64,000 nucleotides of DNA, from NCBI GenBank assembly GCA_038064495.1, contig JBBTSZ010000002.1, positions 480,002 to 544,001 on the forward strand, in the 5' to 3' direction. The position numbers and the translations under genes were made by a program. The DNA is from Patescibacteria group bacterium. GTDB lineage: Bacteria > Patescibacteriota > Minisyncoccia > Phycocordibacterales > Phycocordibacteraceae. Positions 5,537 through 59,199 of this stretch are shown here, piece by piece. The first letter of the stretch is position 1. Each line of letters starts with the position of its first letter. A model generated the notes under the pieces. It was not told the origin of the DNA, did no database searches, and worked only from the letters and a program-made list of their open reading frames with translations.

Positions 5537-8371
5537 CTAGTCAAACAGCGCAAGGAGGTCATCGTAGGCGTCACTGTCGTCTCGCTTTCGCTCCCCTTTT
5601 CGCCATGCCCCGCCCATAAGCTCACCTACAACCTCCTCAAGGGTAGTGAGCAGGTCTTTGCGCGACTCGTCGGTGAGCGGCACTAGGTAATTCGTCACGT
5701 CCTCAGGAGACACCTGGATAATGAGTGCCATGGTCGGGTGGTGGCCATTCTCACGAAGCAGCAAGTCATAGAAGGCAAGCTGGCGGGGATAGGCCTCGTC
5801 TTTTTTATCAATCTTGCTTGAGGTCTTGAAGTCTACAATGCACTCACCTCCTTTCTCCTTAAACACTGCATCAATCATCCCGTACAAAAGCACATCCACA
5901 CCCGAAAATAATTTCTTAACCGAGAATGCTTTTTCTATTGCAACGGTTTCTTCTTTCTTTCCTTCCCGTAGATAGGTCTCGAGGCGCGCACGGGAATTCT
6001 CCACCACACGCTCGTAGGCCGCGTTTCGCGGAAGTAGGGAGCGCTTCAGCGTTCCTTCAAGCACGCTGTATGCTTTGTCCTCACTTCCCGATTTAAGGTA
6101 CTCCGCAATGCCCGCATGCACTGCGGTGCCGATAGCGGTCGCGGGTGTTTCTGGCTCATGGAGCCGAAGTACACGGCGTGCGAAAAAGACTGGAGGTGAT
6201 TCAAGATATTCATTCAACGCTGATGGCGAGAGTCCTTCCTGCGTGAGGTAGGTACGCACCAGGTCAGTCACCACCTGTGCAGACGCTACATTGTGATGGA
6301 GGAGTGGAAGTGGGTCTGCTTCCCTAGTGACCGTGGTGAGACCTTCCGGAATGAGCGCCGAGGGCGCTGTTTCTCTACCATCACCATTTTCACTACTGTA
6401 CGAAAGAATGAGGTTGTCTTTTGCGCGCGTCATCGCGACATAGAAGAGCTTGGTCACGTCTTCAAGCGAACGGGACTGGTCCACCGGTGATGGAATCTTC
6501 GCAGACATACCACCCCTCTCCCAGGCGCGCGCCGTGAGTTCAACCATGAAGACGGTGTTGAACTCCATACCCTTCGCCTTGTGCGCAGTGATGACTGTGA
6601 CCATACCCTCTTTTTTTGTAATTGAGGTCTTCACGCTTTCAAGACCGTGCTCATGGGCTTTCGTGAAAGCCGAAACGACGTTTGCAAACGTGCGTCCCGG
6701 GTCACGCACCACGATTTCTTCAATGTGCATGAAAATACGTCGCATGAGTTGCACATCTTCAAGGTGCTCTGCGCGAGCGAGCATATACGCACGTGCGCCA
6801 GATTCGGTAATGGCACGCGACAGAAGCGGAAGCGGTGCCTCAGAAAGTGCGTCTTTTTGTAGCTTACTGAGAATCTTCGCAATGTCGCGGTACTCCGTGA
6901 TAAGCGTCGTAAAAAGCTCGCGGTCGCGGTTTTTGAGGAGGAGTCCCGCGCGCTCCGGAAGCGGCAGGTCCCACCAGGGGGCGAGCAGCGTCTCACGAAG
7001 GGCTGAGATATCAAGCGGGTCGGAAATGGTACGCATGAGCGCAAGAATAGAGCGCATCAGTGGTCGACTGGATAGTTTTACATCACCCGCGCGCAGTACC
7101 GGAATGCCTTTGCCTCTCAAATGCTCAGCGAAGAGGTCTGCGGTTGCGTTCCGGTTTGCGATAATCGCCACCTCTTCAGGTGCGACACCTTTGGCAAGAG
7201 TTTCTTCAACCATGACTGCGACCGCATCGCGCTCCGCGAGCGGATCTCCTGCAACGAGTAGTTCCATACGTGCACTGCCGGTTCGAGTACTTGTGAGTTC
7301 CTGATGTTTACCTGTTGCAGCAGGAACACTTTGTATGAGTGTGTGTGACGTATCAAGCAGACCTTGGAGCGCACGAAAGCTGTCCGTGAGGTAGACAAGT
7401 TCGGTTCGTGGATAGAGCTCGGTGAATCTCTTGAAGTGCGTAGAGTCTGCTCCCTGAAAGCGATAAATGGCTTGCTTTTCATCCCCCACCACAAAAAGGT
7501 TCGGGTGGTCATCAAGTGCAAACGTATCCAGAAGCGCGTGTTGGAGCTCGTTGGCATCCTGGTGCTCGTCAGCAAGAAGATACTGGTACTGCTCCCGCAC
7601 GCTCGCCATGAGGTCTGCGTCCGCTTTGAGCCCATCAACCGCAATGCGCAGCACATCAGCAAAATCATACACATCGTTCTTCTCTTTGAGTGCCTCGTAT
7701 GCGGAAATGAGCCTCGCGGCTTCCTCACCTTTTTCAAGGCGCTCTAGTTTCTTTTCACCTTCTGGTTTGAAGTCACCTTTCTTGCCGTACTTGCTGTCAC
7801 GCAGGTAGTAGAGCGACTCGTCCGCACGAATGCGCTTCGCTTCGCCTTCTAACCACACACGGTAGTCTGCTAGCGTAATGCGCTCGCGCACGAAGTCGTC
7901 ACGAAGTCGTGCGAGGTCGCGCAGATAAAAATAGGGTGACTTTGTGGTGCGGAGTGCTTGCAGGTCTTCCTGCTCAAGCACTTCTCGCCAGAGCAGTGTG
8001 GTCTCCACTTCCGCAGCAAGGCGCTTACCACGCGCTTCCGGGAAGGAGTCGCTATAGGTAGAAAGCAGGTGCTCGGCAAATCCGTGAAAAGTGGTGATGA
8101 AAACTTCCCGCGCGACAGCTTCACCTACGAGTTCCCCAAGGCGGCTGCGTACTGTGCGAGCCGCGGAATCCGTGAAGGTAAGGACGAGAATATTCCCCGG
8201 AGTTGCCTGCGTCTTCTGAAGAATGTTCGCAATGCGTAGCGTGAGAATGTGCGTCTTGCCGGTACCGGGTCCTGCTATGACGAGGACTGGCCCTTCTACC
8301 GTGTCCACCGCTTTCTTTTGGGCAGCGTTGAGTTCTCTGTATGCCTTGGTGAATGCGGTCGGGTCTGCCAT
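5537..8371 (-). CDS. UvrD/PcrA-family SF1 helicase with C-terminal RecB/Cas4-like PD-(D/E)xK nuclease domain
   Basis: Walker A GPGTGKTH at the N-terminus, UvrD helicase motifs, and a C-terminal ...CIVDFKTS... nuclease motif with Cys residues. Confidence 0.85.
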   Translation of the reverse strand: MADPTAFTKAYRELNAAQKKAVDTVEGPVLVIAGPGTGKTHILTLRIANILQKTQATPGNILVLTFTDSAARTVRSRLGELVGEAVAREVFITTFHGFAEHLLSTYSDSFPEARGKRLAAEVETTLLWREVLEQEDLQALRTTKSPYFYLRDLARLRDDFVRERITLADYRVWLEGEAKRIRADESLYYLRDSKYGKKGDFKPEGEKKLERLEKGEEAARLISAYEALKEKNDVYDFADVLRIAVDGLKADADLMASVREQYQYLLADEHQDANELQHALLDTFALDDHPNLFVVGDEKQAIYRFQGADSTHFKRFTELYPRTELVYLTDSFRALQGLLDTSHTLIQSVPAATGKHQELTSTRTGSARMELLVAGDPLAERDAVAVMVEETLAKGVAPEEVAIIANRNATADLFAEHLRGKGIPVLRAGDVKLSSRPLMRSILALMRTISDPLDISALRETLLAPWWDLPLPERAGLLLKNRDRELFTTLITEYRDIAKILSKLQKDALSEAPLPLLSRAITESGARAYMLARAEHLEDVQLMRRIFMHIEEIVVRDPGRTFANVVSAFTKAHEHGLESVKTSITKKEGMVTVITAHKAKGMEFNTVFMVELTARAWERGGMSAKIPSPVDQSRSLEDVTKLFYVAMTRAKDNLILSYSSENGDGRETAPSALIPEGLTTVTREADPLPLLHHNVASAQVVTDLVRTYLTQEGLSPSALNEYLESPPVFFARRVLRLHEPETPATAIGTAVHAGIAEYLKSGSEDKAYSVLEGTLKRSLLPRNAAYERVVENSRARLETYLREGKKEETVAIEKAFSVKKLFSGVDVLLYGMIDAVFKEKGGECIVDFKTSSKIDKKDEAYPRQLAFYDLLLRENGHHPTMALIIQVSPEDVTNYLVPLTDESRKDLLTTLEEVVGELMGGAWRKGERKRDDSDAYDDLLALFD

Positions 8372-8478
8372 GCACTCATTCTACCCCGAGTCATTGTTTC
8401 TGCATTTTCCGCACTCAGTGCTCTATATATATGAAAACCCCTCGCTTGTTGCCAAGCGAGGGGCTGGGGAAAGAGCAA

Positions 8479-8643
8479 TCAGTTGCCGGTCGAGCGCGTT
8501 TCCGGGCCAATCGTGCTGGTGTTATGCAGCTTGGTGTTGAGCGAATTCCACGCCGCGATGGCAGCGACCGCGATCAAGGCAGCGATGAGACCGTATTCAA
8601 TTGCAGTCGCGCCATTTGTTGCCTTCCAAAACCTTTTGAACAT
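8479..8643 (-). CDS. flp: Flp/Fap-family type IVb pilin
   Basis: 54 aa: MFKRFWKATNG/ATAIEYGLIAALIAV..., with the canonical G/xxxxEY prepilin motif and AGGAGA RBS. Confidence 0.8.
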   Translation of the reverse strand: MFKRFWKATNGATAIEYGLIAALIAVAAIAAWNSLNTKLHNTSTIGPETRSTGN

Positions 8644-8680
8644 GAATGTTCTCCTGACTGAGGGCGTTCGCGAAAGCGAA

Positions 8681-8842
8681 CTACCGGTTGTTGACGCTGA
8701 TGTCGGTCGCAATCACCTTCGGCGGATTGTTGGCTTGGATAGCCGCAATGGCTGCAACACTGATAAGCGCTGCAATGAGGCCAATTTCAATCGGCGTAAC
8801 CGATTCCTTAGCCGAGCGGAAAAGATCTTTGAACTTGCTCAT
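8681..8842 (-). CDS. flp: Flp/Fap-family pilin (second tandem copy; ORF below the 60-aa track cutoff)
   Basis: Manual translation gives MSKFKDLFRSAKESVTPIEIGLIAALISVAAIAA...; TAG stop at 8681. Confidence 0.7.
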   Translation of the reverse strand: MSKFKDLFRSAKESVTPIEIGLIAALISVAAIAAIQANNPPKVIATDISVNNR

Positions 8843-8885
8843 GTGAATCTCCAAAAAGGGCTACCGGCCTAGTGCGCGGTGCTTA

Positions 8886-8916
8886 TTATAATACACCCAT
8901 ATCTTGTATTTGTCAA
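8886..8916 (-). promoter_or_regulatory. Sigma70-like promoter for the pilin genes
   Basis: On the minus strand: TTGACA-17nt-TATTAT(AAT). Confidence 0.5.
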
Positions 8917-8994
8917 TGTCTCATAACGCCTTCCTCCGCGGTGGTTTGTGTAGTATTTTCAACACAGATTGAACAAAACAGAGGGAGATGGGTT

Positions 8995-9540
8995 ATGGAC
9001 AGATATGAGCCAATATTGCTTGTTCCGGTTCTTGAGGAAGGCCCCTACTGGAACCTGCTCGGAATATCGTCGCCTGCCGATAGAGATATCGCCAAGCTCG
9101 ACCATGCAATGAATCTTCACATGAAGTTCTTGCATAACAACTGCACTATCTTTCTTTCAGAACGTTCCGGGAAAGTGGCCTCAAAGCGATTTCAAGGTGC
9201 GATGGAATATGTAGAGATGCATGTACCGCCACATTCTGTAATCACACGGCCACTCATGTATTCTGGGATGTTTGGAGAAGTTCAGACTGCAATTCGGTAT
9301 CTCAAGGAGGAGCCTCAAAACATTCGAAAGGTCATCTTCGTTGGCAACGCTTCACAGCGACCACATATTCTAAGTATTGCGCGAGCGGCGTTCGGCGCAC
9401 ATCAGCTTCGTTCAAGCATGCAGGTGGATGCGCATTCTGAACATGTTGGACTGCTTGCCCGCATTGGCAGTTTTCTTAAATCATTTAGCGAGCCACCGCC
9501 AGCGAACATACCAGCGAAAGCTCCGAAACGAATCTCGTGA
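8995..9540 (+). CDS. Hypothetical protein
   Basis: GAGGGAG RBS; 181 aa starting at the internal Met. Confidence 0.45.
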   Translation: MDRYEPILLVPVLEEGPYWNLLGISSPADRDIAKLDHAMNLHMKFLHNNCTIFLSERSGKVASKRFQGAMEYVEMHVPPHSVITRPLMYSGMFGEVQTAIRYLKEEPQNIRKVIFVGNASQRPHILSIARAAFGAHQLRSSMQVDAHSEHVGLLARIGSFLKSFSEPPPANIPAKAPKRIS

Positions 9541-10979: not shown

Positions 10980-11441
10980 ATGAAGGAGGTGCACTATTGG
11001 CTCATGAAATCCGAGCCGGAGTCCTATGGCATCACACACCTGAAGAAGGACAAAAAGACACCATGGAATGGTGTGCGGAATTATCTTGCGCGTAACTATA
11101 TGCGAGCGATGGCGCCCGGTGACCTCGTGCTGTTTTACCATTCCAGCTGTGCCGTTCCCGGCGTGTATGGCATTGCGAAGGTCGCTTCGCTTCCCTACCC
11201 GGATCCGACACAATTTGATGCGAAGAGTCACTACTTTGATGCGAAGTCAAAAAAGGAAAAGGCCCTCTGGGACCTCGTAGATATTAGCTACGTTTCTATA
11301 CTCAAGACTCCCGTGCCACTCTCAGACATTCGTAAAAACACAAAACTAAAAGGTATGAAAATACTTGAGCCACGTTGTCGGCTTTCAGTAACTCCGGTGA
11401 GTGCACATGAGTACGCTGAAATACTCAAGCTTGGTAGTTAG
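10980..11441 (+). CDS. EVE (PUA-like) domain protein
   Basis: WLMKSEP...W.GVRNYLARNYMR...GDLVLFYHS motifs. Confidence 0.85.
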   Translation: MKEVHYWLMKSEPESYGITHLKKDKKTPWNGVRNYLARNYMRAMAPGDLVLFYHSSCAVPGVYGIAKVASLPYPDPTQFDAKSHYFDAKSKKEKALWDLVDISYVSILKTPVPLSDIRKNTKLKGMKILEPRCRLSVTPVSAHEYAEILKLGS

Positions 11442-12013
11442 GCGTTCAAGATTCGCTCAATCCGACGGTCTGGAACAAACCACATAAGACCCGTAAGCAT
11501 AAAGAAGGTGATGGAGACTGCAGGGTTATAGGGAGCAAAGACAATCGCTAGTGCGTTGAAGAGAATGGAGGTTTTGCCCTTAATATCCTTGCCGAGTGCC
11601 TGCGAGAGTGAAGTCGTGTTTTCGTGAAGTGAAAGCAAATCCTTGGTGAGGAGATAGTACGCAAATGAAGCTCCGAAACCAATGACGGCGTACATGGCAA
11701 CCGGGTACGGAGCAAAGCTGGTTTCGCCCATCCAGGTGGTGGCAAATGGAATGAGCGAAAGCTAGAACAAGAGGTGAGAGTTCGCCCAAAGAGTGCGCCC
11801 GTGAATTTTCTCCACTGCCTGGAACATATGGTGATGATTGTTCCAGTAGATAGCGACCGTGATGAAACTAATAATATAGCTGAAGAAAATCGGAATGAGT
11901 GGTATGAGATTCCCGGGGTCGGCAGTTGCCGGCACTTTAAACTCGAGCACCATCACCGTAATGATGATGGCGATGACTCCGTCGGTGAAAGCCTCGAGTC
12001 GTCCCTTACTCAT
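11438..12013 (-). pseudogene. TMEM175/DUF1211-family K+ channel homolog interrupted by an in-frame TAG at 11762-11764
   Basis: RLEAFTDGVIAIIITVMVLE motif; the two ORFs (11762-12112 and 11438-11731) lie in the same frame separated only by an amber codon. Confidence 0.65.
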
Positions 12014-34574: not shown

Positions 34575-34905
34575 ACCGCCCCATCATATGGGGCGGAAAG
34601 TGGTGATTCAGGCAACCTACGGCGACTCCTTTTTCCCGCAGGATTCAGAGTCTTGTCTCCAGCACGGGTGGTGTTTCATTGGCGACTTCCGTCTCCCACC
34701 TAGTATGCGCACAATTGAATGCGCAGAGGTACGCGATGCCAGATAAGCTAACGATCCGCCCCAGAGGAATCGAACCTCCGGACATTCCGACACCATCGGA
34801 ACATCGGCTGTTAAGGAGTCGAACCCTCTTTACCCTCACCAACAAGGAACAGCAGGACCTCAAGCGTTTGCCTGAATCACCGACCGCAAGTCTACCCTGA
34901 CCGCG
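34575..34905 (-). ncRNA. tRNA-like / tmRNA-like structured RNA region (identity unresolved) with its own terminator
   Basis: On the minus strand there are two GGTTCGAnTCC T-loop-like motifs, a GGU-anticodon-like hairpin, the 3' acceptor-like GGGGCGG-A, and a 14-bp long-range helix (GGTGATTCAGGCAA/TTGCCTGAATCACC). A short frame GCC AAT GAA... (ANETPPVLETRL*) is present. A terminator lies at 34566-34597. Confidence 0.3.
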
Positions 34906-54042: not shown

Positions 54043-56091
54043 TTATCCTTCAATCGTATGGAGTGCACGCGTGAGTGCGAGCTTTACTCCGGTAACGCCT
54101 GCTGAGTAGCGAGCATCAACCGCCGTTGAGAGTGACTCAATAAGTCGCTCAAGAAACGATGGTGAGCAATCTACACAGATGCGTGCAATTTCAGGATGGA
54201 CCTTGGTGCCATCAAGTTTTGCCCGGTAGGCATCATCAAGCGCAACAATGACATGCGAAAGGAACGCCTCAGCATCGCCACCTGCCTGATTGATACTGCG
54301 AACCATCTTGAAGACCGTCTCCTTCTCGCCTGCCATGAGCGCGGTGAGAAATGCCGGCACGTCTGAAGGAGTTTCCTTTGCGACATGCGGTGCATGCTCA
54401 ACCACAGGTACCTGGTGAATTGATACAGCGACTGGAGCTGGAGCGACAGGAATAACGGGTAGCTCTTCCTCACGAGAGAGTCCCTTCACAATGTCTTCAA
54501 TAGACAGTGCGCGTTCCTCACCTGCGAATGATTTGAATCCTTCGTAGGAACTGTGGGTTGTGCGCGTCGTGACCGGAGCACTCACGGCATGCACCATTGG
54601 TGTCGTGTGCGCAACCGTATGCGCTACGGGACGATGTACCGATGTATTTTCTACAACGTGCGTACTCTGGCCAGTCACCTTTTTAAAGGCAACCGGAAGG
54701 GCTCCGAAGAGGATGAGATAGGCAAGAGCGAGGCTCCAGAGGATAAGCATGAGCCAGTAGATGGCGGTGCCGATCGGACCAAGATCAAGACCGGTGTATG
54801 GAAGATCTGAGAGATAGACGTACGAGAGTGGCTGATCTGGTGGACTTGGAAGCTGCGTTAGTGACACGTGCGGGTTGTTGCTCGTACTTCCATGACGGAC
54901 ACGCACTTCAAGTGTTGCTGAACAAGAAATGATTTGACCATTGTATCCGTAGAAGGTTCCTTCGTAACGATAGGTGCCTCGCCCGGGTGACACGGTGCGT
55001 GAACCAGTTTGGCCGGTGTAGCCACCACCGTTACTAATGTAGACCTGGCGAACGTTTTCGCTACCCCACGTAAGTTCAGCATCGTCACCGTCATAAATAG
55101 TTGAAGGGCTCACACTCATGCGGCAGGTAGGACCAACGGAAGGTGTGTCTACCGATACGCTTGTTGTACACGTAACTGTTCCACCAGCGCCTGTGGCGGT
55201 GAGGGTGTAATTCGTAGAAACAGATGGACTCACACTACGAGAACCATCCTGCGCTACTGCACCAATACCCCGGTCAATGCTGACACTGGTTGCGTTACTC
55301 GTGTTCCAAACGAGCGTACTGACTCCACCAGTTGAAATGCTGTTTGGCGACGCTGAAAGCGTACACGTTGGTGCGTTTGGTGGAGGTGGTGGTGTATTCG
55401 TTACCGTAATTGGTGCAGAACAATAAACCGTACCCCCAGGGCCAAATGCCGTGAGCGTATACGTTGTTGAGTTGTTTGGTGAAACGGTGCGAACACCTGA
55501 GGTCCCGACACCGCCAATTCCGTTATTGATGGAAACTGACGTTGCATTACTGGTGGTCCACGAAAGAGTGCTACTACCTCCCCGCTCGAGTACCTGTGGG
55601 TTTACCGTGAGCGTACACGTTGGTGCGTTTGGTGGCGGGGGCGGGGGTGGAAGTGTCGTGACGGTGACGGTTGTTGAACAATTCGTACTACCTCCAACAC
55701 CCGTAACGGTCATAGTGTACGTTGTCGTTTGAGTTGGAACGACGGTACGGGCACCGCTACCTGTGCCGACTGAACCGATACCTTGGTTGATTGTTGCACT
55801 TGTCGCATTATTCGTGGTCCAAGAAATCGTAGAAGCACCGCCAAGCGTAACCGAGCTTGGATTTGAAGAGAGAGAACAGACTGGGGGTGGAACGAGTACG
55901 GGCGGAATGATTGGTGGTGGAGGTACCACGCAGCATGGCGGACCAACGATGATGGCATGCACCGACTGTGGCGTGACGAATCCTCCAGCGAAGGCCATGC
56001 CCACACCGATTGCAAACACCGACACCACGGTGAATACACCGGTCAATACCGGTCGGTTCTTGGTTTCTGAAATTGTTTCGATGCTGTTCAT
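54043..56091 (-). CDS. Surface protein with about four tandem Ig-like repeats joined by poly-Pro linkers, a TM helix and a cytoplasmic C-terminal domain
   Basis: N-terminal signal anchor; repeated ~95-aa units (...SWTTNNATS...TYTLT...) separated by PPPPPNAPTCTL; a second TM helix near residue 430. Confidence 0.55.
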   Translation of the reverse strand: MNSIETISETKNRPVLTGVFTVVSVFAIGVGMAFAGGFVTPQSVHAIIVGPPCCVVPPPPIIPPVLVPPPVCSLSSNPSSVTLGGASTISWTTNNATSATINQGIGSVGTGSGARTVVPTQTTTYTMTVTGVGGSTNCSTTVTVTTLPPPPPPPNAPTCTLTVNPQVLERGGSSTLSWTTSNATSVSINNGIGGVGTSGVRTVSPNNSTTYTLTAFGPGGTVYCSAPITVTNTPPPPPNAPTCTLSASPNSISTGGVSTLVWNTSNATSVSIDRGIGAVAQDGSRSVSPSVSTNYTLTATGAGGTVTCTTSVSVDTPSVGPTCRMSVSPSTIYDGDDAELTWGSENVRQVYISNGGGYTGQTGSRTVSPGRGTYRYEGTFYGYNGQIISCSATLEVRVRHGSTSNNPHVSLTQLPSPPDQPLSYVYLSDLPYTGLDLGPIGTAIYWLMLILWSLALAYLILFGALPVAFKKVTGQSTHVVENTSVHRPVAHTVAHTTPMVHAVSAPVTTRTTHSSYEGFKSFAGEERALSIEDIVKGLSREEELPVIPVAPAPVAVSIHQVPVVEHAPHVAKETPSDVPAFLTALMAGEKETVFKMVRSINQAGGDAEAFLSHVIVALDDAYRAKLDGTKVHPEIARICVDCSPSFLERLIESLSTAVDARYSAGVTGVKLALTRALHTIEG

Positions 56092-56223
56092 AGTGATTTC
56101 TTCTAACGCTTGTAAGTAATGAGTAACAAATAAAATGCCCCAGCCACAGAGTGGGGTATGAAAAAGGGGAGGTTCCTAAGCGGGTGCGAACACCCGCTTA
56201 GGATTTTGAGAAGTGAGTGCACC

Positions 56224-57228
56224 TTACGGGAACGGTCGGAAGTCCCAGGGCAGAAGATCTGCCCTCTTATTCCATTCAGTTCCTGATCGGTTCTCCCGGT
56301 AATCCTCCCACGAGGTAACACCTTGGCTGCGAGAGTGTAGGCGACCTGTCCGTTCAAGACAGAACGCTACAATCATTTCCTGCGCAGGTGTAGCTGCCTC
56401 ATGCGGAACGCGAACGATATACTCGCCCGTTTCCGTAATTGGGATGCTCGCAGCACCCTGGATGTCCTTGCGGTAAAACGGCACGAGTCGCCTCATGTCG
56501 CAATACTGCGGACAATAGGCATCCATGTTGCGATAGATCGTGTCATTCGGACCTTTGTAGGCCCAACACCGATCCTCTACATCCACAGTGCCGTTGCGAT
56601 ATATACCAACCATCACGCGAAGGTCGCCACGATTCACATCCGCTTGGAAGTGAATCTCGTCGCAATCTGCACGAACAGGTGCAGCGAGCGCACGGTATTT
56701 GCCGAGACTCGGGTTCGCGCAATGCGCGAACATCACGAACTTACCGGTCTCGGGATTAATCCACTTCGCCTCACCTTTCTTCAGCGTCCGGTGCACGCAC
56801 TGGATGATGAAGGTGAAGGTTGAACCGCTCGGGACCATACATGCCGACCAGTATTCCTCTTTGTCGGTTGCCGTAACAGCAACCAAGGAACGCAGATAGG
56901 CGGGCAGGTCGGCAAGCGAATTGAGGTGCGTCGTTTTCGGGTCGACAATCTTCAATGCTCCGAAGAGCGCCGAAAGGGTGCCGCACGCACGTTTCCGTGC
57001 GTCCGAACGTGCGCATTTTTCCGGCTCTAGCAGCGAGCTTTCGCCCTTGCCACCTGCAAGTGCACGTTCAACTTTGACCGCCAAGTCGCGAGGCGACTGA
57101 TTATCTAGGCTGAATGATAGGTGCGGGTGGTGTACTTTCGCCGTTTTGGTTGGTGATGCAGCCGAAGCTGTATGTCCTCCCACTGCCGTAATCAGCAGCG
57201 CGAGGGCGACGAGCCAAACTTTGCTCAT
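56224..57228 (-). CDS. Secreted Cys-rich hypothetical protein
   Basis: Signal peptide MSKVWLVALALLITAVGGHTASA; multiple Cys. Confidence 0.5.
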   Translation of the reverse strand: MSKVWLVALALLITAVGGHTASAASPTKTAKVHHPHLSFSLDNQSPRDLAVKVERALAGGKGESSLLEPEKCARSDARKRACGTLSALFGALKIVDPKTTHLNSLADLPAYLRSLVAVTATDKEEYWSACMVPSGSTFTFIIQCVHRTLKKGEAKWINPETGKFVMFAHCANPSLGKYRALAAPVRADCDEIHFQADVNRGDLRVMVGIYRNGTVDVEDRCWAYKGPNDTIYRNMDAYCPQYCDMRRLVPFYRKDIQGAASIPITETGEYIVRVPHEAATPAQEMIVAFCLERTGRLHSRSQGVTSWEDYRENRSGTEWNKRADLLPWDFRPFP

Positions 57229-57330
57229 TCTCTTAACTCCCCTATAGCGCCGCTCCGAAATGGAACGGCTTTGGTTGAAGGAACAACTCTCTTTCTCTTT
57301 GTGTTTGCAAAGAGTTAGCCGAAAACGAAC

Positions 57331-57987
57331 CTAGTTCGTTACAGGGTAACTCCCAACAAGCTTTGCAATGACCACGAACCGGTCGCTCTTGCTCGCAAAC
57401 GAATCACAGGTCACGAGCGTGAGCTTATTACCGGAGACGGACAAGGGGATGCCATCTTTCTTGGCAGAGGCACTTGCGACGGTCTCCACGGCGTAGATAT
57501 AGACGCGGTCCTTGCCCGTGACGAGGATTTGGTCCCCGGTCTTCAGGTTCTGAATCCCGTCAAAGGTCTTGAACGCCTGGTTGTGGACGACCGGCAAGTA
57601 GCTTGAATGGCCAAACATGACCACGTTCGCTCCCGGCGTACCAAGAAGACCTGAGGTTGGATAGCGCACCGCGCCAACCAACAGATTTTGATCAAGCACC
57701 GCTGGATCTGCGGTCGTTGGATTTGCAACGCTCGCAACCAAGTTGATGCTTGGAATCTGAATCTTTGTTGGAAACTCGCCGGGCACTTTTGCCGTTGCGC
57801 TTGCAATCGGTCCTGTTGCACTGGCGGTGTCCGTAAGCGTCGTGCTGTTTGGGACCAGGTCAAAGAAACCGAGCACAATAAACGAACTCAAAAAAACGAA
57901 TAGGGTAAGGCCGAGGAAGCTCCACTTCCTCTCAAGAATTGGTGAGCTGCCCTTACGGGAGCTCAAACTATGGTTGTTTCCTGGCAT
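57331..57987 (-). CDS. srt: Sortase-family transpeptidase
   Basis: N-terminal TM anchor, His (VVMFGHSSY) and an LVTCDSF (TLxTC-type) Cys motif. Confidence 0.75.
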   Translation of the reverse strand: MPGNNHSLSSRKGSSPILERKWSFLGLTLFVFLSSFIVLGFFDLVPNSTTLTDTASATGPIASATAKVPGEFPTKIQIPSINLVASVANPTTADPAVLDQNLLVGAVRYPTSGLLGTPGANVVMFGHSSYLPVVHNQAFKTFDGIQNLKTGDQILVTGKDRVYIYAVETVASASAKKDGIPLSVSGNKLTLVTCDSFASKSDRFVVIAKLVGSYPVTN

Positions 57988-58080
57988 ATCGTCCTACTAA
58001 CAAATACACCATAAACTGCGTACTGTCAAGTCTTACGACCCGCCACCTCCCAAGGAGAGGTTTGACAAAAAATAAACAGT

Positions 58081-59199
58081 GTGGTAAACAGGTGCTATAT
58101 GGAAACGACTACAATTCAGTCCAAGAAGGGCCCAATGAACGGTCTTGCCGTCGTAGGGTTCGTAGCCCTTATTATCATTGGTATTTTGACGGCTATTTAC
58201 GCCGCAAGCTTTATTCCTAAGGCTCTTTCGCGATTCTCATCTGCGAACGTATACCTTTCAAATCTTTCTGCAACGGATGGAACGGACACGACAGCGACTA
58301 CGCCAACAACTCCTACCGTCGCGACGACGCCAGAACCAACGGTACCGGTCTCCCCTACGCAAGCGGCGCCAGCAGCACCCGTTGTGACTACGCCTACCTA
58401 CGTTACTCCTGTCTACACAGCACCTACACCTACCGTTGTACGTGTACCCGCTCCACAAACGTATTATTCAGGTTTGCCTGACCTTTCGGTCACCATCACG
58501 GACGTTGGATATCTTCGTACCAACAGCATTGATTCGTTTGTATCAGCCAACTCAGTTCCTCGTGGCTATCAGGGAGCTGTTCGCTACACAGTTCGCAACG
58601 AAGGCACCAATGTGTCTGGAAACTACCGTGTTGAGATTCGCGTCTCTACGAACGGCGGAAACGATACCGACAGCGTGAGTGGATCAAATCTCGTACCAAA
58701 CCGTAGCGTCACCGGAACCGGTGTGTTTGATGCGAACAGTTCTGGTACAGCAACCATTCGCATTACCGTTGATGCTCGTGACGATGTAGATGAGTCTCGC
58801 GAAAACAACAATGACGATTCTGACAGCATTCGTTTGAACGGTTCCGATAACTCTTCAAACGATAGTTACGACAGTAATGGTCGTTATTGCCCATACGGAA
58901 CCTATCATGCGAACAATCGCTACTACTGCAACACGTCAGACTCTGGCACTGATTCTTATGATAGTAATGGTACCTACTGCCGATACGGTACGTACTACTC
59001 AAATGGCCGCTACTATTGTGACTCTTCAAATACCACGAATAATTCCTCGTACGACAGTAATGGAAATTTCTGCTCCTACGGAACGTACTACTCGGGTAGT
59101 CGCTACTATTGCAACACCTCTGGCAGTCAGTGGTACACACGAGACCAAAACTGTACGTATGGAAACTACTACAACGACGGAACAAGTTACTGCTACTAA
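58081..59199 (+). CDS. Membrane-anchored surface protein with a Thr/Pro-rich stalk and four Cys/Tyr-rich repeats
   Basis: TM helix; TTATTPTTPTVATTPEP linker; four repeats of SYDSNGxYCxYGTYYSNGRYYCNTS. Confidence 0.55.
   Translation: MVNRCYMETTTIQSKKGPMNGLAVVGFVALIIIGILTAIYAASFIPKALSRFSSANVYLSNLSATDGTDTTATTPTTPTVATTPEPTVPVSPTQAAPAAPVVTTPTYVTPVYTAPTPTVVRVPAPQTYYSGLPDLSVTITDVGYLRTNSIDSFVSANSVPRGYQGAVRYTVRNEGTNVSGNYRVEIRVSTNGGNDTDSVSGSNLVPNRSVTGTGVFDANSSGTATIRITVDARDDVDESRENNNDDSDSIRLNGSDNSSNDSYDSNGRYCPYGTYHANNRYYCNTSDSGTDSYDSNGTYCRYGTYYSNGRYYCDSSNTTNNSSYDSNGNFCSYGTYYSGSRYYCNTSGSQWYTRDQNCTYGNYYNDGTSYCY

What the first reader, a model, noticed from the sequence alone, without database searches (positions are those of the whole stretch)
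8479..8940. Two tandem Flp-type pilin genes (one below the ORF-track cutoff) with a strong promoter, upstream of a UvrD-nuclease helicase and without visible tad genes
Both small ORFs have the Flp prepilin signature (G/ATAIEYGLIAALIAV and TPIEIGLIAALISV). The second, at 8681-8842, was found only by manual translation. They are driven by a TTGACA-17-TATTAT promoter and are followed on the same strand by the 944-aa helicase-nuclease gene. No tadV/cpaA or rcpA, tadABC genes appear anywhere in the window.
Basis: partly seen in the sequence, partly recalled or inferred. Interest (0 to 1): 0.5.

Follow-up and report, generated by a model that had tools for sequence, protein, structure and literature searches.

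The report
Orphan Flp pilin gene pair
Two small adjacent genes in an ultra-small groundwater bacterium (Patescibacteria) encode Flp-type pilus subunits with their own promoter and terminator; the gene type is well known and already annotated publicly, and the only unusual points are the host lineage and the absence of pilus-assembly genes nearby.

Summary
On the minus strand, flp2 (8681-8842, 53 aa) and flp1 (8479-8643, 54 aa) lie behind a TTGACA-17-TATTAT promoter. Flp1 is a textbook Flp/type IVc prepilin: Pfam Flp_Fap 51.3 bits against a cut-off of 32.2, and G11|ATAIEYGLI aligns to residue 1 of the mature Caulobacter Tad pilins 8U2B and 8U1K. Flp2 is a divergent paralogue. It scores 27.3 bits (below cut-off), has Ser at -1 and Ile in place of Tyr6, and has no close relative in 5.8 billion proteins.

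The pair is a self-contained unit. A 13-bp hairpin (-25.4 kcal/mol) plus a U-tract follows flp1. The helicase has its own TAGAAT-N6-ATG start, conserved in relatives that lack flp. Co-transcription with the helicase is therefore unlikely.

The source is a Hainich groundwater Patescibacteria MAG, and GenBank already names both proteins 'Flp family type IVb pilin'. None of 22 syntenic loci in relatives carries flp. The nearest homologues (≤72% identity) are from Sphingomonadales, which suggests lateral acquisition.

No Tad or type IV pilus genes occur in 82 kb of the contig. The rest of the genome could not be searched, so whether a pilus is assembled stays open.

Verdict: an ordinary gene kind in an unusual host, of modest interest.

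The parts
8888..8916 (-). Sigma-70-type promoter: -35 TTGACA (8916-8911), 17-nt spacer, -10 TATTAT (8893-8888)
   Evidence: 11 of 12 matches; one of 3 sites at or above 11/12 in 64 kb, against 0.69 expected from shuffles.
8849..8852 (-). Shine-Dalgarno GGAG, 6 nt upstream of the flp2 ATG
   Evidence: Read directly from the sequence.
8681..8842 (-). flp2: 53-aa divergent Flp-like protein, MSKFKDLFRSAKES|VTPIEIGLIAALISVAAIAA... It has Ser at -1, Thr2, Glu5 and Gly7, with Tyr6 replaced by Ile and Ala3 by Pro.
   Evidence: Pfam Flp_Fap 27.3 bits, E 3.2e-6, below the gathering score of 32.2. Alignment A2. No other homologue at E<=0.01 in 5.8e9 proteins. GenBank MEK7602413.1, 'Flp family type IVb pilin'.
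8650..8655 (-). Shine-Dalgarno AGGAGA, 6 nt upstream of the flp1 ATG, within the 37-nt flp2-flp1 spacer
   Evidence: Read directly from the sequence.
8479..8643 (-). flp1: 54-aa canonical Flp / type IVc prepilin, MFKRFWKATNG|ATAIEYGLIAALIAVAAIAAWNSLNTKLHNTSTIGPETRSTGN. The predicted mature pilin is 43 aa.
   Evidence: Pfam Flp_Fap 51.3 bits, above the gathering score. Residue 12 aligns to residue 1 of the mature Caulobacter Tad pilins 8u2b and 8u1k. 5,992 Flp homologues at E<=0.001. GenBank MEK7602412.1.
8425..8465 (-). Intrinsic-terminator-like element: 13-bp stem, GCAA loop, then UUUUCAUAUAUAU. It begins 13 nt after the flp1 stop.
   Evidence: Hairpin dG -25.4 kcal/mol. The 114-nt flp1-to-helicase interval (8372-8485) that contains it folds with z = -3.98 against 200 shuffles. 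The consensus scan missed it because the U-run has only 4 U.
8369..8383 (-). The neighbouring helicase's own start signal, TAGAAT-N6-ATG. It is not part of the flp unit and marks where similarity to relatives begins.
   Evidence: Alignment A1: (G)GTAGAAT/TACACT...ATG is conserved in 9 of 9 sequences, with no similarity further upstream.

Best explanation
This is a self-contained two-gene operon on the minus strand: promoter, flp2, flp1, terminator. It sits in a Patescibacteria (Paceibacteria/Parcubacteria-like) groundwater genome and encodes Flp-type (type IVc, 'Tad') prepilins.

Shown: Flp1 has every sequence hallmark of a Flp major pilin. Flp2 is an old, diverged paralogue that kept the hydrophobic helix under purifying selection but lost Gly-1 and Tyr6. 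The pair has its own expression signals and is separated from the helicase-nuclease gene by a strong hairpin. It is absent from the same locus in all sampled relatives. Its nearest homologues are Flp pilins of Sphingomonadales (Alphaproteobacteria).

Inferred: the pair was acquired laterally. Flp1 is inserted into the membrane through its class III signal peptide and cut after Gly11 by an A24 prepilin peptidase. A TadA/PilB-type ATPase and a platform protein encoded elsewhere in the genome then polymerise it into a thin fibre made only of helices. No secretin is needed if the cell has a single membrane. The fibre would serve attachment to surfaces or host cells, or DNA uptake as in Micrococcus luteus. 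Flp2, with Ser at -1, is probably processed poorly or not at all, and acts as a minor or modulating subunit rather than the main building block.
For: Family identity comes from Pfam, the PDB alignment that starts exactly at the predicted cleavage site, and alignment A2, where G11, T13, E16, Y17 and G18 are invariant or nearly so.

Autonomy comes from the promoter, the Shine-Dalgarno sequences, the hairpin and U-tract, and the helicase's own conserved TAGAAT-N6-ATG.

The genes are real rather than an assembly artefact: the 614-nt region (window 8372-8985) is identical in three assemblies, the NCBI contig, an ENA 397-kb contig and a Logan contig, and a short fourth contig from another ENA sample encodes the exact Flp2.

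Selection is visible in the 19-codon core. Ten codons differ only synonymously and three differ non-synonymously between flp1 and flp2, and DNA identity is only 72%.

The pair is lineage-specific. None of 22 helicase-orthologue loci has a Flp ORF, while the helicase-dsbA-rnh-hisS synteny downstream is conserved and the upstream side varies.

Donor signal: all seven named hits other than self are Sphingomonadales. The leader M[LF]KRFWK is shared with P0006, which heads a canonical flp-flp-cpaA-B-C-D-E-F-tadB-tadC locus.

Literature: Flp is cleaved at G/XXXXEY by TadV, and Flp pili mediate DNA uptake in a monoderm (PMC4322843). Tad systems lose the secretin in monoderms and are often transferred laterally (PMC6668835). 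[quoted passage not shown]
Against: No prepilin peptidase, T2SSE ATPase, T2SSF platform or TadE/F gene was found in the 82 kb that could be read.

The one review passage I retrieved says Flp genes are 'almost always' inside tad loci (PMC4322843). The pili reported for Patescibacteria in the papers I found are of the T4aP type (PMC11623550, PMC8672522).

The flp genes have the same GC as their surroundings (0.51-0.55 against 0.507), not that of the candidate donors (0.59-0.63). A 54-aa protein is also too short for a reliable phylogeny, so lateral transfer is suggested but not proven.

There are no expression data.
Confidence: 0.6

Rival explanations
1. Orphan cargo. The flp pair was picked up from a proteobacterial tad/cpa locus without the machinery. 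The genome has no Tad system, so the proteins are never made into pili. They either persist as small single-pass membrane proteins with some other role or are on their way to being lost.
For: No machinery genes in 82 kb. The pili reported for Patescibacteria in the papers found are T4aP-type (PMC11623550). The nearest homologue, P0006, is the head of a complete cpa locus, of which only the two flp genes have a counterpart here. Flp2 has lost Gly-1 and Tyr6.
Against: Both ORFs are intact and have near-consensus promoter, Shine-Dalgarno and terminator signals. The excess of synonymous over non-synonymous differences shows long-term purifying selection on both copies. GC is already host-like, so the genes have been kept for a long time. 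Orphan flp genes far from tad loci also occur among the nearest full-length homologues, P0025 and P0035, which sit beside a UDG gene. Lack of adjacency therefore does not mean lack of machinery.
Confidence: 0.25
2. The pilins are handled by the resident type IVa pilus machinery (PilD, PilB, PilC) that most Patescibacteria carry. They would then act as accessory subunits of that pilus and not of a Tad pilus.
For: Type IV pilus assembly genes (PilB/C/M/O) are reported in most Hainich Patescibacteria MAGs (PMC8672522). Prepilin peptidases are 'sometimes shared between systems' (PMC6668835). Flp1 has the generic G|xxxxE class III motif.
Against: From memory, not checked here (the paper, PMC1483019, is not held): in Pseudomonas aeruginosa Flp processing needs the dedicated peptidase FppA and not PilD. 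No case of a T4aP machine polymerising an Flp pilin turned up in the papers searched. The presence of T4aP genes in this particular genome was not verified.
Confidence: 0.1
3. The flp genes and the UvrD/PD-(D/E)XK helicase-nuclease form one transcription unit, a pilus-plus-DNA-processing module. This is the link the first reader hinted at.
For: Same strand, only 107 nt apart. Flp pili drive DNA uptake in Micrococcus luteus (PMC4322843). The terminator's U-run is short (4 U), so some read-through is possible.
Against: There is a strong hairpin between the genes. The helicase has its own conserved TAGAAT-N6-ATG. Helicase orthologues in 22 related loci keep the downstream synteny but never have flp upstream.
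Confidence: 0.04
4. The small ORFs are chance or shadow ORFs and the real gene is on the plus strand. The ENA gene calls place two 76-aa ORFs there.
For: A 129-aa ORF lies on the plus strand at 8483-8872. The ENA caller chose the plus strand.
Against: The plus-strand ORF has no Pfam match. The minus-strand ORFs hit Flp_Fap and solved Tad pilins, and the promoter, Shine-Dalgarno sequences and terminator all fit the minus strand.
Confidence: 0.01

Closest known systems
Caulobacter crescentus PilA / Flp major pilins of Tad (type IVc) pili (PDB 8U1K, 8U2B; Pfam PF04964)
   Same: Flp1 is similar in size (43 aa mature against 45 aa). Its mature N-terminus ATAIEYGLI.ALIAV matches, including Thr2, Glu5, Tyr6 and Gly7. 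It has a short basic leader ending in Gly, no globular domain and a polar C-terminal tail (PMC10710030).
   Different: The host is a Patescibacterium, not a proteobacterium. No cpaA-F/tadBC genes are adjacent. The C-terminal 20 residues are not conserved.
Tandem flp genes heading alphaproteobacterial cpa/tad loci (e.g. the P0006 locus, L037)
   Same: Two flp genes in tandem on one strand. The leader motif M[LF]KRFWK and the core are shared, with 71% identity over 42 aa.
   Different: There the pair is followed directly by cpaA (A24 peptidase), cpaB, cpaC (secretin), cpaD, cpaE, cpaF, tadB and tadC. Here it is followed by a terminator and an unrelated helicase. The second copy here (Flp2) is far more diverged.
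Orphan flp genes away from tad loci (P0025 and P0035, next to a UDG-family gene)
   Same: These are the best matches over the full length, at 61-62% identity over 96-98% of Flp1, and they have no machinery genes nearby.
   Different: Every named homologue in the same hit list is from Sphingomonadales. Whether those genomes carry tad loci elsewhere was not checked.
Flp/Tad pili of monoderm Actinobacteria (Micrococcus luteus)
   Same: A likely single-membrane envelope, so no secretin is expected. tadV is not clustered with the pilin gene. DNA uptake is a possible role (PMC4322843).
   Different: In M. luteus flp lies inside a tad cluster with tadA, tadB and tadC. That was not seen here.
Type IVa pili of Patescibacteria (e.g. 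Nanosynbacter lyticus TM7x PilA1/PilA2)
   Same: The same superfamily of class III signal-peptide pilins, in the same phylum-level group (PMC11623550).
   Different: Those pilins are 'lollipop' proteins with globular domains, assembled by PilB/C/D/M/N/O. Flp1 and Flp2 are bare helices of the Flp subfamily.

Membership tests
Flp/Fap pilin family (Pfam PF04964) | Score at or above the Pfam gathering threshold (32.2 bits) | tested here: met
   This row is for Flp1 only: 51.3 bits, E 1e-13. Flp2 is tested in the next row and does not pass.
Flp/Fap pilin family (Pfam PF04964) - Flp2 | Score at or above the Pfam gathering threshold (32.2 bits) | tested here: not met
   Flp2 scores 27.3 bits, E 3.2e-6, covering profile positions 2-29 of 46. 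It gives no PDB hit. BLASTP against Flp1 gives E 0.012. It is homologous in the core, but not a family member by the curated cut-off.
Flp-type (type IVc) prepilin | Small size (50-80 aa precursor) with no globular domain | tested here: met
   54 and 53 aa. The criterion is from PMC4322843.
Flp-type (type IVc) prepilin | Class III signal peptide: a hydrophilic leader ending in Gly (or Ala), then about 20 hydrophobic residues | tested here: met
   This row is for Flp1 only: MFKRFWKATNG|ATAIEYGLIAALIAVAAIAA, with a mean Kyte-Doolittle value of 2.02 over 19 aa. Flp2 has the hydrophobic stretch (2.28), but the residue four positions before Glu is Ser, not Gly or Ala, so Flp2 does not meet this feature (criterion from PMC10191384).
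Flp-type (type IVc) prepilin | Flp motif G/XXXXEY with Thr2, Glu5, Tyr6 and Gly7 | tested here: met
   This row is for Flp1 only: A1 T2 A3 I4 E5 Y6 G7 L8 I9, identical to the Caulobacter pilins. Flp2 reads V1 T2 P3 I4 E5 I6 G7 L8 I9, so Tyr6 is lost and it meets the motif only in part (PMC10710030, PMC4322843).
Tad / type IVc pilus system | TadV/CpaA peptidase, TadA/CpaF ATPase and TadB/TadC platform proteins encoded with the pilin gene | tested here: not met
   None were found in the window or in the 82 kb of contig read (record positions 12,613-95,051). This rests on the Pfam tables, tblastn with L037 CpaA-F/TadB/C/D where every hit had E>2, motif scans, and Pfam searches of the unannotated neighbours.
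Tad / type IVc pilus system | The same machinery genes anywhere in the genome | not testable with these tools
   Only DNA within 10 kb of window genes could be fetched. This genome is not among the GTDB representatives searched (best helicase hit 72%). The 397-kb, 296-kb and 565-kb contigs of the organism exist but could not be read in full.
Tad / type IVc pilus system | Cleavage of the prepilin and formation of a surface filament | not testable with these tools
   This needs experiments or proteomics.

The most novel reading that the evidence does not exclude
A Patescibacterium that has no Tad system took two Flp pilin genes from an alphaproteobacterial neighbour or host and has kept them under selection. 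It would use them without their native machinery. One option is that its own type IVa pilus apparatus polymerises a type IVc pilin. The other is that they mimic the host's Tad pilins at the contact site between episymbiont and host.
Probability: 0.08. Interest if true: 0.7.

Novelty: new member of a known kind. Interest (0 to 1): 0.3.

Why it matters
Pili are thought to be central to how ultra-small Patescibacteria attach to hosts and take up DNA. The papers I could find describe only type IVa pili in this group. A well-preserved, strongly signalled Flp (type IVc) pilin pair in one of these genomes, apparently acquired from Alphaproteobacteria, hints at one of two things. Either some of these bacteria also carry a Tad pilus, or pilin genes can be kept without their usual machinery. 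Each possibility can be tested directly from the public MAG and the existing Hainich metatranscriptomes. Taken alone, the finding is a correctly recognised and already annotated gene family, and its closeness to the helicase carries no functional meaning.

Tried and rejected
- Link to the helicase: rejected because of the hairpin terminator, the helicase's own conserved start signal, and synteny in relatives without flp.
- Mobile-element borders around the flp/p181 segment: no convincing direct or inverted repeats and no tRNA. No GC anomaly.
- Recent tandem duplication: rejected, because DNA identity is only 72% over 51 nt.
- tblastn of Flp1 against 72,556 plasmids: no match, probably because the low-complexity filter masks the hydrophobic core.
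- NCBIfam: no meaningful hit for Flp1, Flp2 or the neighbours p181, p128 and p76.
- Other pilin-like class III signal peptides in the window: none besides the two flp genes.
- Tad-related Pfam families in unannotated neighbours and in the plus-strand shadow ORF: none.
- Literature searches for Flp/Tad in Patescibacteria or CPR: no paper describes them.
- Papers on TadV and FppA specificity (PMC1595517, PMC1483019): not held.
- Reaching the rest of the genome: not possible, because look-ups are limited to 10 kb around window genes, and this genome is not in the GTDB representative set.
- Unused: the third large protein search, the structure predictions and the metagenome scan. None of them could answer the remaining question, which is what machinery the genome holds.

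Full report
**What is in the sequence.** Both small ORFs lie on the minus strand. flp2 runs from 8842 to 8681 (ATG, 53 aa) and flp1 from 8643 to 8479 (ATG, 54 aa), with a 37-nt spacer between them. Each ATG has a Shine-Dalgarno sequence 6 nt upstream: GGAG for flp2 and AGGAGA for flp1. Upstream of flp2 is TTGACA-17-TATTAT at 8916..8888. My own scan of the whole window found only three sites with at least 11 of 12 consensus matches. Composition-preserving shuffles gave 0.69 +/- 0.81, and this site is the only one of the three with the optimal 17-nt spacer.

**Family assignment.** Flp1 matches Pfam Flp_Fap (PF04964) at 51.3 bits, against a gathering score of 32.2. Flp2 matches at 27.3 bits (E 3.2e-6), which is below the cut-off. 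Against the PDB, residues 12-44 of Flp1 align to residues 1-33 of the mature Tad pilins of two Caulobacter strains (8u2b, 8u1k). The predicted cleavage site G11|A12 therefore coincides with the experimentally observed mature N-terminus ATAIEYGLI (PMC10710030). In an alignment with ten database homologues, Flp1 carries all of the invariant or near-invariant positions: Gly-1, Thr2, Glu5, Tyr6 and Gly7. Flp2 keeps Thr2, Glu5, Gly7 and the hydrophobic helix (15 of 18 core residues match Flp1). It differs at -1, where it has Ser although class III leaders end in Gly or Ala (PMC10191384). It also has Pro3 and has Ile in place of Tyr6, a residue conserved in all Tad pilins and involved in keeping the helical register (PMC10710030). 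Flp2 has no PDB match. It also has no homologue other than itself at E<=0.01 among 5.8 billion proteins.

**Are both genes alive?** flp1 and flp2 share only 72% DNA identity over the 51-nt core. Across the 19 aligned core codons, 6 are identical, 10 differ only synonymously and 3 change the amino acid. The duplication, or double acquisition, is therefore old, and both copies have been under purifying selection. Flp2 is not a fresh pseudogene. The plus-strand 129-aa ORF that overlaps both genes has no Pfam match. The ENA gene caller that chose that strand produced an artefact.

**Relation to the helicase.** A 13-bp stem with a GCAA loop (dG -25.4 kcal/mol), followed by UUUUCAUAUAUAU, begins 13 nt after the flp1 stop. 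The flp1-to-helicase interval that contains it folds with z = -3.98 against shuffles. The consensus scan missed the element only because the U-run has four U. I aligned the 140 nt upstream of the helicase ATG with eight orthologous loci. Similarity begins only about 15 nt before the ATG, at a conserved (G)GTAGAAT/TACACT-N6-ATG. That arrangement looks like a -10 box driving a leaderless or nearly leaderless mRNA, which is an inference. None of the 22 related loci retrieved with the helicase has any Flp-like ORF within 6 kb, tested by hmmsearch with --max and E<=10. They do keep helicase-dsbA-RNase H-hisS downstream, while the upstream side varies. The helicase is therefore an independent, conserved gene, and the flp pair is a lineage-specific insertion next to it. 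The divergent 181-aa gene at 8995-9540 is probably lineage-specific as well.

**Source organism.** The exact proteins occur on GCA_964357455.1, contig CAYHLG010000002.1 (117.8 kb). They also occur on contigs from Hainich well H41 groundwater assemblies. The 614-nt flp region is identical in a 397-kb ENA contig. Gene content and the nearest helicase orthologues (57-72% identity in Parcubacteria/Paceibacterota MAGs) place it in Patescibacteria. GenBank already names both proteins 'MAG: Flp family type IVb pilin [Patescibacteria group bacterium]', as MEK7602412.1 and MEK7602413.1. The annotation itself is therefore not new.

**Origin.** Apart from itself, the best hits to Flp1 are at most 72% identical, and every hit that carries an organism name is from Sphingomonadales (7 of 7).
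- One of these hits (P0006) has the leader MLKRFWK. It is the second of two tandem flp genes at the head of a complete cpaA-cpaB-cpaC-cpaD-cpaE-cpaF-tadB-tadC locus, on a contig with the alphaproteobacterial marker GcrA.
- The best matches over the full length (P0025, P0035) are single flp genes next to a UDG-family gene with no tad genes nearby. Flp genes away from tad loci are therefore not rare in the donor-like lineage.
- The flp genes have local GC (0.51-0.55 against 0.507 for the window), not donor GC (0.59-0.63). No repeats or tRNA mark an insertion.
- I read this as an old lateral acquisition. The protein is too short to prove that.

**Machinery.** No peptidase A24, T2SSE ATPase, T2SSF platform, secretin, RcpC, TadZ or TadE/F gene occurs in the window or in the 82 kb of contig that I could read. 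The evidence is the Pfam tables, tblastn with the L037 Cpa/Tad set where every hit had E>2, motif scans and Pfam searches of unannotated neighbours. No other pilin-like signal peptide is present. The papers I found describe type IVa pili in Patescibacteria (PMC11623550, PMC8672522). None mentions Flp or Tad pilins in them. The main survey of the superfamily used RefSeq complete genomes from 2016, and its text never mentions CPR or candidate phyla.

**Most likely mechanism.** Steps 1-3 are shown. Steps 4-6 are inferred.
1. The pair forms a strongly signalled bicistronic unit.
2. Flp1 has an intact class III signal and Flp motif.
3. The unit is independent of the helicase.
4. Flp1 is inserted into the membrane and cut after Gly11 by an A24 peptidase.
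5. An ATPase and platform encoded elsewhere polymerise it into a thin Tad-like fibre. No secretin is needed if the cell has a single membrane, as in Actinobacteria (PMC4322843, PMC6668835).
6. The fibre serves adhesion or DNA uptake, and Flp2 acts as a poorly processed minor or modulating subunit.

I put 0.6 on this picture, 0.25 on an orphan pair that is never assembled, about 0.1 on use of the resident T4aP machinery, and very little on a helicase-linked module or on the ORFs being spurious.

**Verdict.** The gene kind is well known and already annotated. The modest interest lies in the host lineage, the apparent alphaproteobacterial origin, and the open question of which machine, if any, assembles these pilins.

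Noticed in passing
window 8369-8383 (-), and L015, L017, L018, L020-L023, L032 just upstream of the helicase ATG: The UvrD/PD-(D/E)XK helicase-nuclease gene starts with a conserved (G)GTAGAAT/TACACT-N6-ATG in all nine genomes aligned, and nothing further upstream is similar. It looks like a -10 box placed to give a leaderless mRNA.
   Followed up: partly
window 11438-12013 (-): A TMEM175-like (PF06736) gene is split by a single in-frame TAG at 11762-11764. The 97-aa ORF downstream continues in the same frame after 27 nt. This is either a nonsense pseudogene or a read-through candidate.
   Followed up: partly
window 34755-34852 (-): ARAGORN calls a 98-nt 'tRNA-Stop' with anticodon tta in the gap next to the RNase R gene. 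The stretch contains two GGTTCGAnTCC motifs that resemble T-loops. Rfam finds nothing there even at E<=1, so it is probably a false positive, but it remains unexplained.
   Followed up: partly
window 1-64000: No Rfam family reaches its gathering score, and no ordinary tRNA gene is found in 64 kb of a gene-dense bacterial contig.
   Followed up: no
L012 20790-22835 and L039 4688-7092 (about 2.4-5 kb beyond the window start): Cytochrome bd oxidase subunits I and II are present in this Patescibacteria genome. Next to them are an FAD-linked oxidase and two GH130 genes.
   Followed up: no
window 54043-59199: A cluster of a sortase (57331-57987), a CARDB-domain protein (58081-59199), and 334-aa and 682-aa proteins with no family match. 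They are possibly sortase-anchored surface proteins. The large ORF is called as 698 aa in the ENA record, while the NCBI record has a 358-aa gene there plus a 134-aa ORF on the opposite strand.
   Followed up: no
L013 9500-9941 and L040 17941-18382 (ENA 397-kb contig): On DNA identical to the window, the ENA gene calls place two 76-aa ORFs on the strand opposite the flp genes. The pilins are therefore missing from that protein set. This is an annotation artefact that would hide them from protein-based surveys.
   Followed up: yes
window 8995-9540 (+): A divergently transcribed 181-aa protein has no Pfam or NCBIfam match and no tblastn counterpart in any of the 22 related loci. It may have arrived together with the flp pair.
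   Followed up: partly
L045 680-1460; L046 1050-1841; L047 1304-2095: The full-length nearest homologues of Flp1 are single flp genes that sit divergently next to a UDG-family (uracil-DNA glycosylase-like) gene, in the same arrangement on three separate contigs. This is a recurring placement of an orphan flp gene.
   Followed up: no
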